Shown in pieces: positions 1 through 47,156 of a stretch of DNA of 64,000 nucleotides (position 1 is the stretch's first letter; each line of letters starts with the position of its first letter). Both the position numbers and the translations under genes were made by a program. The stretch comes from Octopus sinensis (Eukaryota), in the NCBI RefSeq assembly GCF_006345805.1, contig NC_043012.1, forward strand, positions 23,250,001 through 23,314,000. The letters are read 5' to 3'. The notes beneath the pieces are model-generated. The model made no database searches, was not told the origin of the DNA, and saw only the letters and a program-made list of their open reading frames with translations.

Positions 1-490
1 AGTTGAACACTTTGGAAAAATGGAAAAGTCTTTTATGTTTCAAGCCTGTGCTCTTCAGCTGGAAGGATTAAGAGGAAAAAAATGTGTATCTAATGATCAT
101 ATGGATTTAATATATTTATGATATAAGCATTTAGATAGCAAAATAAGTTATAGAAAGGACAATCAGATTGAAAATGTAATACAAAGGAGGCATTGTAAGA
201 ACAAAGATTTTGAAGAAACTGGTAAGACCAAAGGCTGGCATTGGAAACATTCCAATATTAGAAAAGAGAATTGTTAGTGCAATTAAATATATATATATAT
301 ATATATATATATAGGCTCATCCAGAACCCTTGACATAAGGGGATCCACCTTAGTTTTCAAGACACCCCCATCCACACCATGCAGGTCTCCCAGGTGTTTT
401 GGACGGATGGATATATATACATGCATATTCATTCAGGAATAAATATATATATATATATATACACGCACACACATACATATTCTTTCATGG

Positions 491-520
<30 letters not shown>

Positions 521-521
<1 letters not shown>

Positions 522-1010
522 GGTAAACGGTAAAATTAAATACAGACATGGACAAGAACATGAAACACCACAGAGACGACACAAGAACCACAGGACGGGA
601 CATTAGAAGCCCTCAGTCATCAGTCAAGAACCAGATCATCTTAGCAATTTCGGCTGATTAATCTTGAGATTGCTCCGATATGGCCAGCCCGCCAAGGGAA
701 ATCTAAGCCAAGCGCATTAGATCCCCTGGAAGAAAGCTTCGAATGTATACAACGAAAGGACGGAAAACGATCGAAGTACACAAACAAAAATACAGAATAC
801 GTGACACCAATAAGAATACAAAAAACGTAAAAACAATAACGGTAAAAATAAAAAATAAACAACAAAACAAAACCAGGACGTAGGACAAGGGTCTTTCGAC
901 AGGACGATTTGAGTAGGGGCTGGCTTGTGAAGTTGTGCCTAAAGGCCACGGGGAGACGAACACATACGTGTTGCTTCTGAGGCTGCTGAAAACGAAAAGA
1001 GCGCTCAACA
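521..1010 (-). mobile_element. Penelope-like element terminal-repeat remnant
   Basis: Begins next to (TA)n; ggacgggacatt(a/c)gaagcc...tcagtcaagaacc segment is shared with the inverted repeat at 37.15-37.4 kb; carries hammerhead core motifs. Family assignment is inference. Confidence 0.5.
613..674 (-). ncRNA. Putative rearranged (non-circularly permuted) hammerhead ribozyme in a Penelope-like repeat
   Basis: Minus strand reads AGCAAU-C|UCAAGA-UUAA-UCAG-CC-GAAA-UUGCU-(13 nt)-UCUUGA-CUGAUGA-CUGA: both core motifs plus stems III (6 bp), I (6 bp) and II (4 bp) in permuted order. Confidence 0.6.
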
Positions 1011-1691
1011 GCGGCTAGCTGTCACGTGAGAACAAAAGACAGGAGAAAGGGACAGATGAAAAGGGAGAGAAGGTGGACGAGGGAGGAGAAGAAAGAGACA
1101 GATCGAGGGGGCTGGAGGTGAGAGAGATAGAGAAACGTAGAAAGGGGGGGGGACGGATGGAGAGGAAAGAACGGAAGGAATAAGGGAGGAGGGAGAGAGA
1201 GAGAAAAAGAGACAGATTAAGAGTCGTATCAAAGCTTGAGAAAAAAAAATACTTATCGTATAAGGACAATTGTGGATATATATTATCCATAAATGAATAT
1301 GTGTATATATACATATATATACACACATATATAGTTACACATATACATATAAACACACACATACACACAAAAGTGGATATTAGCAATTAAACACAGGAAA
1401 ATAAATTGTAGACTCTGAAATACAATAAAATTAAAAATTCTGAAATATGTAATTAAATGACTTAGTGTGTATCATTGAAAGACAAAGCTAGTAGTAGTAG
1501 TAGTGTTGATGTGTGTGTGTGTGTGTGTGTATACAAATAGAAATATCTTTACTTATACATATATCTGTATGTGCGTGTGTGTATGTATCTATATAAATAT
1601 AAATACACATACAAACGAACATGGAAAAATGTACGTTGATTGATGCTGATGTTAATGATGCTATCTATCTATCAATCATCATCATCATCAA

Positions 1692-1727
<36 letters not shown>

Positions 1728-1966
1728 CATCCATTTCTTCATTGCTAGCATGGGTTGGGCAGAGTTTATTTCAGGCAAATTTACTATGAGCAGAAAACCT
1801 TCCTGGCACCAATGTTCACCTGTTTCAAAGCGAGGTAACGTTTCCCCTTGGCCAGACAAGTTCTTGCAGCATATTGTATGACACTGACATTCTTTTACAA
1901 CTATCAAAAGGACAGGCACACACACACACACACACAAACACACACATGTATAAATACATATATACA

Positions 1967-2013
<47 letters not shown>

Positions 2014-2531
2014 GTATGTTTAGATAGATGGATATATGTATGTGTGTGTGTATCCGTCTTTGTAGTAGGTGATAAAAGATATACAATTTTTTAATGCATA
2101 CATACATGCATGTCCATATGCACAGACATACATACATTCATGTATGTACAAATACATACATATACATACACACATAGATGCATGCATGCATGCACACATC
2201 AGTATACATACATAACTTGTAAAGCAAAACTCATGATCACTTAACATTTTTACATCCATTTTAGCATACAAGTGTGGCTGACATTAATATTTGCATGAAT
2301 TATTGAAGCAAACGTAGCAAACATATAAATAATTTATAGTACCTAAGACTATATTGGTAATAAAAATAGAAGGAAGTTTTAATGTTACAGCATTATAGAA
2401 ATATATATATATACACACACACACACAGATATATATATATACATATGTATGTATATATAAACATTAGAAGACGTAATGTGAAACAGCAAGACAGATTATG
2501 ATAATTAATGACACAGATTGTGCATTTCAGA

Positions 2532-2594
<63 letters not shown>

Positions 2595-2911
2595 GATATA
2601 TATATATACATATGTAGATATATATGTATGTATATCTATGCATATGTACACTTATGGTTTCTTTTCAGAGGATATCTGAGCTTTAGATTTAATGAAGAAT
2701 AGAATAGGTTTTTTTTCTGAATTGATGTTAGTATATTTAAATGAAGCAGTTTCTGAGTGAGAATTGAAAACCTGGCTGAACATTTGTTTGGGAAATAATT
2801 TATTGTCATGATATGGTACCCACTTGGAGAAAAAAAAAAATTACTAAATAATATATAATTTGTTTATTATTATATACATTATTACATCATTATATAAAAT
2901 ATAGCCATGAG

Positions 2912-2946
<35 letters not shown>

Positions 2947-3267
2947 CATGTGTGTGTGTGTATGTGTGTATGAATCTATGTATGTATGTATGTGTAAGTA
3001 TATAAATATATCTGTGTGTGTGTGTATTTATATGTATAAGTATATAAATATGTGTGTGTGTTTACATATATATACATAAAAATTAGAAAGAAAACACCTT
3101 TTATCAATTCAAAATGAACAATTAAATTACACCATCTAGAAAATTACATATAATAGAAATACTAAAATTAAAATAACAATAATATACCGATGATTAAGTA
3201 AATTGCAAAATAATAATAAAATCATGTATATTTGGTAGAATAACGACACATGATTCCCTCAAATAAT

Positions 3268-3302
<35 letters not shown>

Positions 3303-3729
3303 ACAAAGAAGGAATGAATAATCATGTTCACATGATACTTTATTCACTTATGTCTATTTGCATGCTTTAAATGATTCAGTGACCAGAATCCATTAAAAAA
3401 ATAATGTTTTACATGTTTAATTAAGCTATCAATGGATCAATTAACCAATCAATTTACAGAACAGCCACACCCCCCCGCCAAGCCATTCTTCTCAAAATCC
3501 TAAAAGTTTACGTATACTTCATGCAAAGTCATATTTTTCACATCCCCACTGAATATGGATTTTCATACATGTTGAGGCGGAGAATCTTCTTCTAGGACTA
3601 TCTTCACAGCACAAGTTCTTCTCGTGTCCAACTACACTCAACATGTGAAATGTGACTTTAATATATTTTATTTAATGCCACTTCATGCAACATTATTTAT
3701 ATATATATATATAGATATATATATATATA

Positions 3730-3954
3730 CCGGAGTAAACACATAAATGTGAAACAAGGTGGAAAAAAGAGTACTCAAATACTAGGGGTAGAGTAATATA
3801 CTTTATTTAAAAGTATATTACTTTTATTTAAAAGAGTTTCACGTTCCCGTTCGTCGGACAGTTTTGTTAAAATTTTAACAAAACTGTCCAACGAACGGGA
3901 ACATGAAACTCTGAGTAACAGGTTTTGTTGAATTTCTGCTGCTTTTAAATAAAG

Positions 3955-3960
<6 letters not shown>
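3730..3960. mobile_element. Penelope-like inverted terminal-repeat remnant with palindrome and minimal hammerhead-like motif
   Basis: Near-perfect palindrome ~3834-3911 centred on aaaatttt; outer inverted match atatactttatttaaaag/cttttaaataaagtatat; flanked by (TA)n. Confidence 0.55.
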
Positions 3961-3985
<25 letters not shown>

Positions 3986-5322
3986 GGGTTATAAATATTT
4001 TTTACTTATTTAAGAAGTAACCAGTTAACATCATAGATTATTTAAGGTGGCATACGTTAGAAATATTAATTATTTTCAATATACATGCATATGTCAGTGT
4101 TACAAATCGTCATTATCATTTCCTTCAATATTAATGTGATTGCATTCGATTACACAAAGATTTCCACGTTGGCATGGGTTGGATTGATCTGCAATGCATT
4201 TTTCCATGAGGCTTGATGACGTGCAGGGCCACCTTGGCAGCATTATAGGGCCCTTGGTCAAATTAATGCACTTAGACCTTCAGTAATTATTTATTGATAG
4301 CAAGACACACCATATATAGGTCATGATTGGGCCCCTGAGCAACTGACCAGTGCACCCATGCTTCAAAACAACACTGACCAGGTGTCGTTTAATCTGTGAG
4401 CCTTAATAATCTCTAAGAAGTGTAAAAGGAGAAAAACTGAAGCTGAACTGATAACAAAATGTTGAATACAAACTGGTCAATTATTGATGTGACCCCTGTA
4501 AATAAGAACAGAAATTATCAGTGTGTTCGGACTGCTTCAGCTGATAAGGGCATACAGACCCCTCAACTCCCTTTAACTAGATTGCCCTGTGAATGCAAAT
4601 TCACAAACAGAAGCCTGAGTAAGTTATTGTTGAAGCATTGACTATTTATAGTTGCAGTGAAGGTACATGGCTCAGTGGTTCGGGCTATTTGGCTCATGAC
4701 TGTAAGGTTGGGAGCATGATTCCTTGTGGTGTGGTGTGTCCTTGAGCAAGCCACTTCATTTCTCAGTGCTCAAGTCCACTCAGCCAGCAAAAATGAGTTG
4801 TATATGTTCAATGGGCCGACCATGTCACAGTTTGTATCTTGCTGAATCTCCTTGAGAACTATATTAAGTGTATGTGGGTCTGAGGAGCACTCAGCCACTT
4901 GCATATTAATTTCATGAGCCAACTGTTCAATTAATTGGACCAACTGGGACATTGGTCATTGTAACCAATGGAGAACCAGGCCATAGAGATGCAGGTATGG
5001 CTATGTGTTTAAGAAGTTTGCTTCCCAACCACATGGTTCCAGGTTCAGTCCTACTGCATGGCACATTGGGCATGTGTTTGCTACCATAGCCTTGGGTCAA
5101 CCAATGCCTTATGAATGGAATTGTAAAACTGAACCAGTATAGAAAAATCATCCCTTGTGTGTCTGTGTGTGTGTGTATGTTTGTGTGTATGTTTGTGTAT
5201 ATGTGTTTGTGTGTGTCTGTTTGTGTATATGACAGTCACTATGTATGTTTTTTTTACACTTGACACTACTAGAGAAGAGAACCAAACGATGCTGTGTTTA
5301 TGTGGTGGTAAATTATGAACTG

Positions 5323-32705: not shown

Positions 32706-34584
32706 ATAATAATAATAAGGCGGCGAGCTGGCAGAATCGTTAAGCATGTGGCATTTCACTTGTCTTTGTGTTCTGAGTTCAAATGCTGCCGGCGTCAACT
32801 TTGCCTTTCATCCTTTCGGGTTCGATAAAATAAATACCATTTGAGTCCTGGGGGGGTTGATGTAATCGACTAGCCCCCCCCCCTCCCCCCAAATTTCAGG
32901 CCTTGTGCCTATAGAAAAAATGAATTATTATTATTATTATTTAAGGTATGAGGTGGAGGAATTGTTACTGCACCAGGCGCCAAACGCTTAGTGACATTCA
33001 GTCTGTCTTTATGTTCTGAGTTCAAATTTTGCTAAGGCCTTTCATCCTTCCAGGGTCAATAAAATAAGTACCAGTTAAACACTGGGGTCAATGTAATCGA
33101 TTAGTCCCCCTCCCCAAAATTCCAGGCCTTGTGCCTATAGTAGAAAGGATTATTATTATTATTATTATTATTAGTAGTAGTAGTAGTATTGCTGCTGCTA
33201 CTACTAATTAATACATATGGAATTGGTACAATATTTTATTACTGATTCCACTAGTGTATAGTAGAAGCATGAAATGAAGCAACATGCTGTTTGAGGAAGG
33301 TTTATAAAACTAAGTTTGAAGTTGGTCCTAAATAGCCATTTGGTAACTATGCAAGATCCTCTGCGGAGAGAGGAGACACTTTTAAGAAATCATGAGTTTA
33401 TATTTTGTTTGACATACTTACCTATATATGCCTGTGTTTTATATGTATATGCATGTGTGTAAAATCATGCACACACACACAGAGGTACAATACTGACTTT
33501 CTGGACACTAATGGTCAGGAACTTATAATCTGCACCAGTTTACAAGCAGGGAATTCAAATTCTCACAGCCACCAAACTAGCTTACTCGTACTTTGCACAG
33601 ACTAGTAACTTGCACAGTACAGTATTAATAAGCTTGTATCATTTATACTAATGTAGAGGTTTTACATTTAAGTATTTAAGTAAATTTAATATTTCTTTAA
33701 TTTTAGAGTGTGTTGACCAAGGAGACCACCCCTGGTTTGAAAAAAATTAATAATCTCAAAAAGGTTTTGGAGCTAAAGGTTCTGGAAAATTGATGTGGTA
33801 CCTGTGGTTCTGGAAATTGGTGTGTGTATGTGTGTGTGTATATATTTAATTTGATTGTACAAGCATTAATTTTTTTTAATACAGAATCACTGGTATTTTA
33901 CTTGCGGTTCTAGAGATTGGTTTAAGCTCTCATGAAAGTAAAATATTTTTATCATATTTGATTTAACGCCTTATTGTTTAAACAAGCCTTATCCAGCCGA
34001 AATATTGTACCTGCTCTCTGTTCAAACTGACCAGATCTAGTCCCTCACACATACCCTACAATGTTATTCTAAAAATAAACAAGCACATCACTGAAATATT
34101 GAAGCTAAGAGATAATGCATGGTTAATTCAAAGCAATGTAAATAAATATTAGATTTGACAGAATCAAGTGAATGTTAATGGCTTAACTTGAAAGTAAAAC
34201 TATTCTGCTTCAATATGAAATTGGATATTAATCTTTTGTTTATTTTGTTTTAAAGTCCATGTATTCAGGGAATACATCAACTTGATATCAACAAGCTGAA
34301 CCCTTTATCTGCATAATTAAATTTCACGGTCATTCCCTTAATGATGTTAATTATCCAACAAAACATGTAATTGATGTTTTCTGCAATGCCTTTTCAGTAA
34401 CTCTTTTAAATCACAGTTTTCATATGAACCACTAAAAGTATTTGATTCTTAGTAATATAAAAAGATATTTGATGAGATATGAAGAAAAAAAAAAAATTAG
34501 AAAATCTGAAAAAAATGTCTTTTGTAAAGAGTGTCACTGGAGCTATCTCCGCTTCTTGCAGCATAGTTTCTTTTTTTCCCGTTA

Positions 34585-34920
34585 GTGCTGCCTGACTGGC
34601 TCCCGTGCCAGTGGCACATAAAAAGCACCATTCGAGCATGGTGGATGCCAGTACTGCCTGACTGGTTCCCATGCTGGTGACATGTAAAAAATACCATTTG
34701 AGCATGGTTGATGCCAGTGCCACCTGACTGGCCCCTGTGCTGGTGGCACGTAAAAAGCACCCACTACAATCTTGGAGTGGTTGGCATTAGGAAGGGCATC
34801 CAGCTGTAGAAACCTTGCCAGATCAGATTGGAGCCTGGTGCAGCTTTCTGGCTTGCCAGTCCTCTGTCAAAAAGTCCAACCCATGCCAGAATGGAAAGTG
34901 GACATTAAATGATGATGATT
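34585..34920 (+). mobile_element. Retroposon 3' portion, family D (taaaaagcacc repeats + ggcattaggaagggcatccagctgtagaaac...(gat)n tail)
   Basis: Same tail at ~25730-25900, 46570-46895 (-), 50246-50395, 51023-51155 (-), 59353-59490 (-) and 62200-62390 (-). Confidence 0.8.
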
Positions 34921-37153: not shown

Positions 37154-37395
37154 TATATATATTATATGTAGAAAAATACAAACTGGGACAAGAAGTAAAA
37201 CATTTAGAAGACGATACAAAAAACACGGACGGGACATTCGAAGCCTTCAAGATTAATCAGCCGAAATGGCTAGGATGATCCGGTTCTTGACTGAAGATTG
37301 AAGGCTTCGAATGTCCCGTCCATGTTTTTTGTATCGTCTTCTAAATGTTTTACGTTCTCGTCCCAGTTTGTATTTTTCTACATATAATATATATA
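37154..37395. mobile_element. Fold-back Penelope-like terminal repeat (arms ~95 bp) holding a 5'-truncated copy of the rearranged hammerhead
   Basis: 37154-37250 is nearly the reverse complement of 37298-37395; 37247-37301 matches the minus strand of 613-667. Confidence 0.75.
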
Positions 37396-45798: not shown

Positions 45799-47156
45799 TA
45801 ACAGAATTATAACACACATGGTCAGATTTCACAAATATCAGCAAATCCATGGATGCACACACATATTTCTCCAATGATCATCATGGAATATGGTAAATTG
45901 TTGGTTATTATCAGTAGAATACTGTGAAACAGACAAGTATTTACAGCCTTATTCTTTTACTTGTTTCAGTCATTCGACTATGGCCATGCTGGAGCACCAC
46001 CTTTAGTCGAACAAATCAACCTCAAGACTTATTCTTCATAAACCTAGTACTTATTCTATCAGTCTCTTTTGCTGAACTGCTAAGTTATGTGAACGTAAAC
46101 ACAACAACATTGATTGTCAAGCAATAGTAGGGGGACCAACATAGACACACAAACACATATATATGTATATATTCAATGGGCTTCTTTCAGTTTCTGTCTA
46201 CCAAATCCACTCACAAGGTTTTGGTTGGCCTGAGACTATAATAGAAGGCACTTGCCCAAGGTGCCTTGCAGTGGGACTGAACCTGGAACCATGAGGTTGG
46301 GAAGCAAGCTTCTTACTACATAGCCATGCCTGCACATATTTATATATGGTTTTGATATTTATCCATATATTAATATTAACTCGTTAGCATTCAGATTGCC
46401 CCTGTCAAATTTAATACTTACTTATTACATTGTTTTGAATTAATCATTCACTATCTTGTAGCTTTGAGACTTTGATGATGCGGTTGTTCAATGACATTGT
46501 AGGATATGTGTGAGAGGCCGGATCCGGTTGATTTGAACATAAAACAGGTAGAATATTTGGGCCGGATATCATCATCATCATCATCATCATCATTGTTTAG
46601 CATCCGCTTTCCATGCTAGTATGGGTTGGACGGTTCAACTGGGGTCTGTGAAGCCAGAAGGCTGCATCAGGCCCAGTCTGATCTGGCAGTGTTTCTACAG
46701 CTGGATGCCCTTCCTAACGCCAACCACTCCGTGAGTGTAGTGGGTGCTTTTTATGTGCCACCCGCACAGGTGCCAGACAGAGCTGGCAAACGGCCATGGA
46801 CGGATGGTGCTTTTTACGTGCCACTGACATGGGGGCCAGGCGAGGCTGGCAACGGCCACGATCGGATGGTGCTTTTTCCGTGCTACCGGCACGGCTATGG
46901 CCAACCTAAATGCTAAATGCTTAAATATTCTTATTCATTCACATTTTTATATATATATAAAGCAAGTGCAGTGAATCATTAGAGTGATAAAGAAATGGTG
47001 TGGTTGTAGGAGATTTAAGAGGAAATTTCTAGAAATAGCCACCCAAGGCGCTTCTAACACTGATTTAGCTAAAACTTCAATCCACTCATATTGAAAGATA
47101 AATATTTCAAATCTCAATTCTGATACTGCTTCAGTGTTGTTAATATCATTGTTATT

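What the first reader, a model, noticed from the sequence alone, without database searches (positions are those of the whole stretch)
613..674. Rearranged (non-circularly permuted) hammerhead ribozyme in a Penelope-like repeat
Seen: the minus strand reads AGCAAU C|UCAAGA UUAA UCAG CC GAAA UUGCU [13 nt] UCUUGA CUGAUGA CUGA. AGCAAU pairs with AUUGCU (stem III, AUC cleavage triplet). UCAAGA pairs with UCUUGA directly before CUGAUGA (stem I). CUGA pairs with UCAG (stem II, leaving CC unpaired before GAAA). The strand order fits none of types I/II/III: a 4-nt linker joins the distal ends of stems I and II, and the CUGAUGA strand comes last. Known: Penelope-like elements carry hammerheads, stems I and II lie side by side in the active fold, and I recall non-circularly permuted natural hammerheads being reported as a rare class. 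Inference: this is such a ribozyme; I cannot tell whether this family is already described.
Basis: partly seen in the sequence, partly recalled or inferred. Interest (0 to 1): 0.85.

Follow-up and report, generated by a model that had tools for sequence, protein, structure and literature searches.

The report
Split-core rearranged hammerhead in animal repeat
A repeat present in thousands of copies in this animal genome carries all parts of a hammerhead self-cutting RNA in a scrambled order, more scrambled than any form I found in print; many copies begin exactly at the predicted cut, so it likely cuts itself, though cutting has not been assayed.

Summary
The motif is real. It lies in a non-coding unit of about 780 bp; one core pattern matches 5,606 genomic places (control 0), single or in head-to-tail arrays inserted in (TA)n. 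The core pieces run cut site, GAAA, CUGANGA: the order of type-SGC hammerheads (Eckert 2023), reported there only outside known genomes.

It pairs fully in 19 of 53 rows, all from the window's own clades. Stem II is instead formed by a strand upstream of the cut (81.8% of cells paired, 62 compensatory cells), with the canonical G10.1-C11.1 pair. The backbone is therefore broken between A9 and G10.1, with two extra helices inserted there, which falls outside Eckert's six orders. [quoted passage not shown]

Genomic copies start at the predicted cut about 30 times more often than at two control positions. This indirect sign of cutting in vivo was not repeated in an older clade. No autonomous partner was found and no assay was possible. 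Verdict: new variant of a known kind, high interest.

The parts
522..1278 (-). One slightly 5'-truncated copy of the ~780-bp non-coding repeat unit; its 3' end abuts (TA)n at 491-521
   Evidence: unit spacing 770-788 in arrays
732..745 (-). Helix P0, 5' strand; pairs with 614-601 and closes the whole domain
   Evidence: (formed in 8 of 8 single-sequence folds)
692..729 (-). Hairpin Pb, inserted with P0 between A9 and G10.1
   Evidence: (88.4% paired; one pair A-U 24 / G-C 18)
684..689 (-). Stem II 5' strand (G10.1 = 689), upstream of the cut
677..683 (-). Helix P4, 5' strand (helix joining the far ends of stems I and II); one mismatch in this subfamily
674..676 (-). k-turn pattern, non-bulged strand (3n G, 2n G, 1n A)
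   Evidence: pattern defined in PMC4382518
668..673 (-). Stem III strand, U16.1 (669) and C17 (668); predicted cut between 668 and 667
662..667 (-). Stem I 3' strand (1.1-1.6)
658..661 (-). 4-nt linker between stems I and II
652..657 (-). Stem II 3' strand (C11.1 = 652)
644..651 (-). G12-A13-A14-A15.1 and the stem III partner strand
638..643 (-). k-turn pattern, bulged strand (3-nt bulge, 1b G, 2b A, 3b U)
631..637 (-). Helix P4, 3' strand
617..629 (-). Stem I 5' strand (629-624) and core C3-A9 (623-617)
601..614 (-). Helix P0, 3' strand; position 605 is a substitution private to this copy
37247..37385 (+). Second, short copy from a sister subfamily. It starts at the predicted cut (within a 4-nt overlap) and is preceded by an inverted truncated copy at about 37155-37250.

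Best explanation
This is a hammerhead core in scrambled order inside a non-coding repeat, predicted to fold as a double pseudoknot that likely cuts its own RNA between 668 and 667 and so likely helps the repeat spread with a borrowed Penelope-like reverse transcriptase. Shown by sequence comparison: the strand order is stem II 5' strand, cut site, GAAA, CUGANGA; two extra helices (P0, Pb) sit between A9 and G10.1; helix P4 joins the far ends of stems I and II; a k-turn pattern lies between P4 and stem III. Inferred: the k-turn bends the P4/stem III hairpin back so that its loop pairs with both flanks and rebuilds the normal active site. Array transcripts would be cut to ~780-nt monomers. Copying primed at the TA motif about 146 nt after the cut would give short inserts ending at the cut from linear monomers, and tandem arrays from circles or uncut multimers.
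For: Core letters are the same in the majority of all six clades while N7 and 90 of 143 other columns differ. With the core left free in the search, N7 shows all four letters and other core changes look scattered (read by eye). Revised stem II: 81.8% paired, 62 compensatory cells, slid controls at most 43%; at least 4 of the first 5 pairs hold in 48 of 53 rows. Stem III has 4 of 5 pairs with two-sided changes. k-turn residues: 1n A 53/53, 1b G 52/53, 2b A 50/53, 2n G 45/53, all four 41/53. Type-SGC ribozymes that cleave carry one extra U between A9 and G10.1 (supplement of PMC10085705), and Penelope hammerheads carry an unpaired base there (PMC4209133), so the backbone can leave the core at this point. 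Copies starting at the cut: 297 hits, 73 of the first 100 listed are clean junctions to unrelated DNA. At +3: 205 hits, 59 of 100. At -7: 12 hits, 7 junctions. At about +36: 23 hits, 4-5 junctions. All hand-tallied. Of the 30 loci returned, 23 start at the cut; all 23 are short inserts reaching (TA)n within about 120-260 nt, with 3' ends of several subfamilies.
Against: No cleavage assay. The pile-up was not repeated in the older clade B: 1 junction among 11 hits, with no control search. A helix-sized insertion at A9/G10.1 has no precedent in what I read, and PMC10085705 assumes that block cannot be interrupted. Stem I has almost no covariation: 29 copies with a C-to-G change at position 1.2 show 0 compensations. 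Energy folding gives stem I a probability of 0.01 and stem III 0.22-0.25 in the window copy, though pseudoknots are not modelled; the alignment fold recovered only stem III plus two spurious pairs. All covariation comes from about six related clades in one genome, so the shuffle counts are not probabilities. No autonomous partner was found.
Confidence: 0.7

Rival explanations
1. One reading: an ordinary type-SGC hammerhead in which the strand after CUGAUGA pairs with 657-654, at least in the young clades.
For: That pairing is complete in 19 of 21 rows of clades A1-A3. These are the clades in which the top two pairs of P0 are lost, and the cut-site pile-up was seen only with an anchor shared by the A clades.
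Against: Complete in 0 of 32 rows of the other clades; no better than a slid control; gives a pyrimidine at 10.1 and two unpaired C before G12; duplex -2.0 against -8.3 kcal/mol, probability 0.00 against 0.61-0.71; formed in 0 of 8 single-sequence folds.
Confidence: 0.1
2. The domain is a hammerhead-derived structure that no longer cuts. It serves as a protein-binding or packaging signal, and copies start at that point because reverse transcription stalls in the fold.
For: No assay; split core without precedent; many junctions also at +3; pile-up absent in clade B.
Against: A stall gives no reason for the sharp drop within 7 nt 5' of the predicted cut. Catalytic positions are kept across clades while N7 varies. 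Among the C17 substitutions listed, most are to U or A (16 of 18), which hammerheads tolerate (recalled NUH rule).
Confidence: 0.12
3. The core is active only when strands from two units or two molecules combine (dimer or trans form), as for many Penelope hammerheads.
For: Units occur in tandem. Penelope hammerheads are proposed to act as dimers (PMC4209133). The monomer needs two pseudoknots.
Against: Stem III is a stable 5-bp covarying helix, not the 1-2 bp palindromic helix that forces dimers; units lie about 780 nt apart; P0 closes each unit on itself in 8 of 8 folds.
Confidence: 0.08

Closest known systems
Type-SGC hammerhead ribozymes (HRIMA-1 and variants; Eckert et al. 2023, PMC10085705)
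   Same: Order cut site, GAAA, CUGAnGA; short linker between stems I and II; helix joining their far ends with 0-1 nt spacers; near-invariant stem I; an insertion point between A9 and G10.1 (one U there).
   Different: Here the stem II 5' strand lies upstream of the cut and two helices fill the A9/G10.1 gap; stem III and the I-II helix are joined on both strands through a k-turn pattern; the host is an animal genome repeat. [quoted passage not shown]
Non-LTR retrozymes of animals (Cervera and de la Pena 2020, PMC7229834; Li et al. 2026 preprint 10.64898/2026.07.22.740005)
   Same: Non-coding units with one ribozyme each, as monomers and short tandem arrays; length inside the 51-972 bp range of the preprint; likely moved by Penelope-like elements.
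   Different: Those are defined by a type I hammerhead, and the preprint searched with type I descriptors; circular RNA is shown for them and not here.
Hammerheads in pseudo-LTRs of Penelope-like elements (Cervera and de la Pena 2014, PMC4209133; Craig et al. 2021)
   Same: Ribozyme about 130-150 nt before a fixed 3' end at (TA)n; 5' truncation; inverted truncated copy; unpaired base at the 5' end of stem II.
   Different: Those are minimal type I motifs beside an RT/GIY-YIG ORF; no ORF is linked here.
Pseudoknot (pistol-like) hammerhead (Zhan et al. 2024, PMC11300833)
   Same: Extra helix and pseudoknot around an unchanged hammerhead core.
   Different: There the A9-G12 and G10.1-C11.1 pairs form one short stem carrying the pseudoknot loop; no split between A9 and G10.1 is described.

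Membership tests
Hammerhead ribozyme class | Core CUGANGA, GAAA and UH with variable N7 | tested here: met
   rows of A1 were picked by a core pattern, one search left the core free
Hammerhead ribozyme class | Stems II and III flanking the core, with covariation | tested here: met
   (revised stem II)
Hammerhead ribozyme class | Stem I supported by covariation | tested here: inconclusive
   Pairs 1-5 were fixed by the search pattern; pair 6 U-A 26 / A-U 15; 0 of 29 position-1.2 variants compensated
Hammerhead ribozyme class | A9 followed within 1-2 nt by G10.1 | tested here: not met
   G10.1 lies 72 nt upstream of A9 (689 against 617)
Hammerhead ribozyme class | Site-specific self-cleavage | not testable with these tools
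   Indirect only: 5'-end pile-up, not repeated in clade B
Type SGC | [quoted passage not shown] | tested here: met
   (P4 of 5 bp or more in 39 of 53 rows; no chance control)
Type SGC | Block C uninterrupted (stem I strand, CUGAnGA, stem II strand in a row) | tested here: not met
Non-LTR retrozyme | Non-coding tandem units, one ribozyme each | tested here: met
   20 of 30 loci (12 distinct arrays) hold 2-4 copies 770-788 nt apart; no coding frame recognised in the unit
Non-LTR retrozyme | Type I hammerhead | tested here: not met
Non-LTR retrozyme | Linear and circular monomer RNAs | not testable with these tools
   No RNA holder listed, contigs only
Penelope-like element pseudo-LTR | Adjacent RT and GIY-YIG ORF of the same element | tested here: inconclusive
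   Penelope-like fragments lie near the ribozyme in 6 of 147 loci but in varying places and orientations; the intact family L178-L185 shares no sequence with the unit; only one RT query and about 1.5 kb flanks were used
k-turn | 3-nt bulge followed by G.A and A.G pairs between two helices | tested here: met
   41 of 53 rows; definition from PMC4382518
k-turn | Kinked 3D fold or L7Ae-family binding | not testable with these tools
   33 of 41 fit the rule 3n=G or 3b=C; the paper also lists GU among poor folders and I did not see its table for U.G

The most novel reading that the evidence does not exclude
A seventh natural hammerhead wiring: the catalytic core is split between A9 and G10.1 into a five-helix junction, a natural k-turn folds it together, and it cuts in vivo in thousands of copies of an animal retroelement. 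It would be the first non-circularly permuted ribozyme in an animal genome, with its cut site recorded in the 5' ends of genomic copies.
Probability: 0.6. Interest if true: 0.9.

Novelty: new variant of a known kind. Interest (0 to 1): 0.82.

Why it matters
It would break the assumption behind the six-order classification of hammerheads and move non-circular permutations from anonymous metatranscriptome RNAs into a high-copy animal mobile element. [quoted passage not shown] Type I descriptors and Rfam miss this motif, so elements said to lack hammerheads (such as Naiads in Craig et al. 2021) may hide rearranged ones. The 5'-end pile-up makes the open question of what Penelope-type ribozymes do directly testable, from genomes and with one in vitro assay.

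Tried and rejected
A stem II starting right after A9 and ending right before G12 pairs at most 2 of 4 in any of 53 rows. A type I reading with the downstream GAAU was dropped: U at 15.1, and its hairpin is not kept across clades.

Stem I covariation test at position 1.2: 0 of 29 compensated. Clade B replicate of the pile-up: 1 of 11.

Rfam: nothing in the unit; only microsatellite-driven weak hits, all below their gathering scores, in 1-5000. Metagenome scan: 28 pattern hits, none with stem III (at most 2 extra pairs) or a model score (best E 0.14). Viral contigs: 0. The pattern fixed this family's stem I, so other families would be missed.

Autonomous partner: not found. The model was run only on the window and on 58 held loci, so more distant families in the genome remain unsearched. 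No RNA holder listed; contigs of four runs hold the motif but cannot show ends or circles, and one 534-nt back-joint may be a tandem DNA joint.

Literature: ten searches found no split-core, k-turn-containing or animal permuted hammerhead. Lunse et al. 2017 was not held; Weinberg et al. 2015 and De la Pena and Flores 2001 were seen only as references; Repbase and Dfam were not available. Earlier findings: nothing by sequence, place or the first word set.

Full report
Observation. The 81-nt stretch alone folds no better than shuffles (z 0.45), while the 147-nt domain 746-600 does (z -2.27). Rfam has no match in the unit. The genome is a 2.72-Gb, microsatellite-rich assembly; that it is an animal, perhaps a cephalopod, is my recalled guess and was not tested.

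The element. The motif lies in a ~780-bp unit (window 522-1278). A 201-nt query gave 1,392 first-look candidates, and the 40 scored were all listed at 100% identity. Of the first 30 loci, 20 (12 distinct arrays) hold 2-4 copies 770-788 nt apart. In the loci printed, arrays have variable 5' ends and a fixed 3' end at (TA)n. A core pattern matches 5,606 places against 0 for its control; 697 of these have another letter at stem I position 6, many of them from older sister clades. A second copy at 37247 starts at the predicted cut and follows an inverted truncated copy, an arrangement described for Penelope-like elements (Craig et al. preprint, passages).

Alignment. From 117 loci I took 89 distinct stretches, dropped 14 with a truncated upstream part and collapsed duplicates to 67. 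I then left out 14 more (5 near-identical copies of the window's subfamily, 9 with indels or duplications), giving A1 with 53 rows in six clades of my own sorting. Rows were chosen by a pattern that fixes stem I and the core, so their invariance in A1 is partly built in. One search left the core free: 960 hits against 57 control; among the 100 listed, 9 looked unrelated, N7 took all four letters, and other core changes looked scattered, apart from CpG decay at G12, two copies sharing a U4 change and one tandem pair (read by eye).

Stem II must be redrawn. It scores 57.5% paired with 7 compensatory cells, like its slid control. The strand before GAAA instead pairs with 689-684: 81.8% paired, 62 compensatory cells, three pairs with two-sided changes, G10.1-C11.1 in 39 rows and G-U in 9. 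The strand after CUGANGA pairs with 745-732 (P0): a helix of 5 bp or more starting 0-2 nt after A9 in 47 of 53 rows (best-helix search, no chance control). Hairpin Pb follows and leads into G10.1. So two helices are inserted between A9 and G10.1. The whole 31-pair model is 90.5% paired with 158 compensatory cells, against at most 43% for slid controls. These counts rest on about six related clades and are not probabilities.

P4 and the k-turn. Helix P4 joins the strand after stem II to the strand before stem I, the place of the I-II helix in type SGC (5 bp or more in 39 of 53 rows). Between P4 and stem III lies a 3-nt bulge followed by G.A and A.G pairs in 41 of 53 rows, the standard k-turn (PMC4382518, passages). 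Clades A1, A2 and A4 have 3n=G, clade B mostly has 3b=C; 33 of 41 fit that paper's rule for ion-induced folding, with the caveat that it also lists GU among poor folders. A sharp bend here would bring the hairpin loop back to its base; this is inference.

Sign of cutting in vivo. If cut RNA is copied, inserts should begin at the cut. Copies whose first base is position 1.1 and whose preceding base is not C number 297; of the first 100 listed, 73 are clean junctions, 18 are C17 substitutions, 3 are short insertions at the cut and 6 are other rearrangements. At +3 there are 205 hits, 59 of 100 junctions. At -7 there are 12 hits with 7 junctions (this anchor excludes clade A3). At about +36 there are 23 hits with 4-5 junctions. 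Scaled, that is about 217 and 121 against 7 and 5. Of the 30 loci, 23 begin at the cut and all are short inserts running about 120-260 nt to (TA)n, with 3' ends of several subfamilies. Against this: clade B gave 1 junction in 11 hits, the tallies are by hand, and a reverse-transcription stop is not excluded.

Partner. An abundant intact Penelope-like family (L178-L185; RVT_1 hit below the curated cut-off; GIY-YIG and CxxCxxC motifs read by eye) also ends at (TA)n and has what looks like an ordinary minimal type I hammerhead about 130 nt before that end, but it shares no sequence with the unit. The model hit 2 of 30 RT loci convincingly, one being the locus the query came from. Penelope-like fragments near the ribozyme vary in place and strand. 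Mobilisation in trans is therefore inferred, not shown.

Known systems. Eckert et al. 2023 (text parts 2-5 of 8, term searches, supplement part 5 of 42) define six orders on the assumption that the CUGAnGA block cannot be interrupted, found type SGC only outside known genomes, and never mention octopus or k-turns in the text or supplement terms I searched. Their HRIMA-1 rows nearly all carry one U between A9 and G10.1. Cervera and de la Pena 2014 and 2020 (passages) and the 2026 preprint (parts 1-2 of 5; its supplements are closed) describe type I motifs. Zhan et al. 2024 (parts 1-2 of 6) describe no split at A9/G10.1. Passages of PMC3088659, PMC7936874, PMC10162972, PMC13725137, PMC6155905 and PMC2632901 gave no such form. 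Ten searches found none; key subscription papers, Repbase and Dfam were out of reach.

Verdict. It works most likely like a type-SGC hammerhead in a retrozyme-like element, but fails one defining test of each family, so I file it as a new variant: confidence 0.7, interest 0.82.

Noticed in passing
G000, listed rows: Substitutions at C17 (18 of 100 listed) and at position 1.2 (about 35 of 100 listed, 18 of them C to G, across several subfamilies) are far more common than at two control G positions, and three copies have short insertions exactly at the cut. This could reflect copying errors over a re-ligated joint, or escape of uncuttable RNAs.
   Followed up: partly
L178 (3' of the ORF, about 130 nt before the TA repeat) and L185 near 7647: An intact Penelope-like family carries what looks like a minimal type I hammerhead with a palindromic stem III and an altered core; a second minimal motif lies at L185.
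   Followed up: no
window 707-716: The loop of hairpin Pb is well conserved across clades with no pairing partner found; possibly a protein or tertiary contact site.
   Followed up: no
window 613-616: Only clades A1-A3 lost the top two pairs of P0 and gained complementarity to 657-654; this could be chance or an alternative, inactive fold.
   Followed up: partly
L021:290-375: An old clade B copy sits directly upstream of a young array, on the same strand.
   Followed up: no
window 3831-3914: A long near-perfect hairpin of about 84 nt, giving microRNA-family hits below their gathering scores.
   Followed up: no
window 34584-34761 and 46743-46887: Short tandem arrays with periods of 66 and 63 nt that share a motif and recur in other loci.
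   Followed up: no
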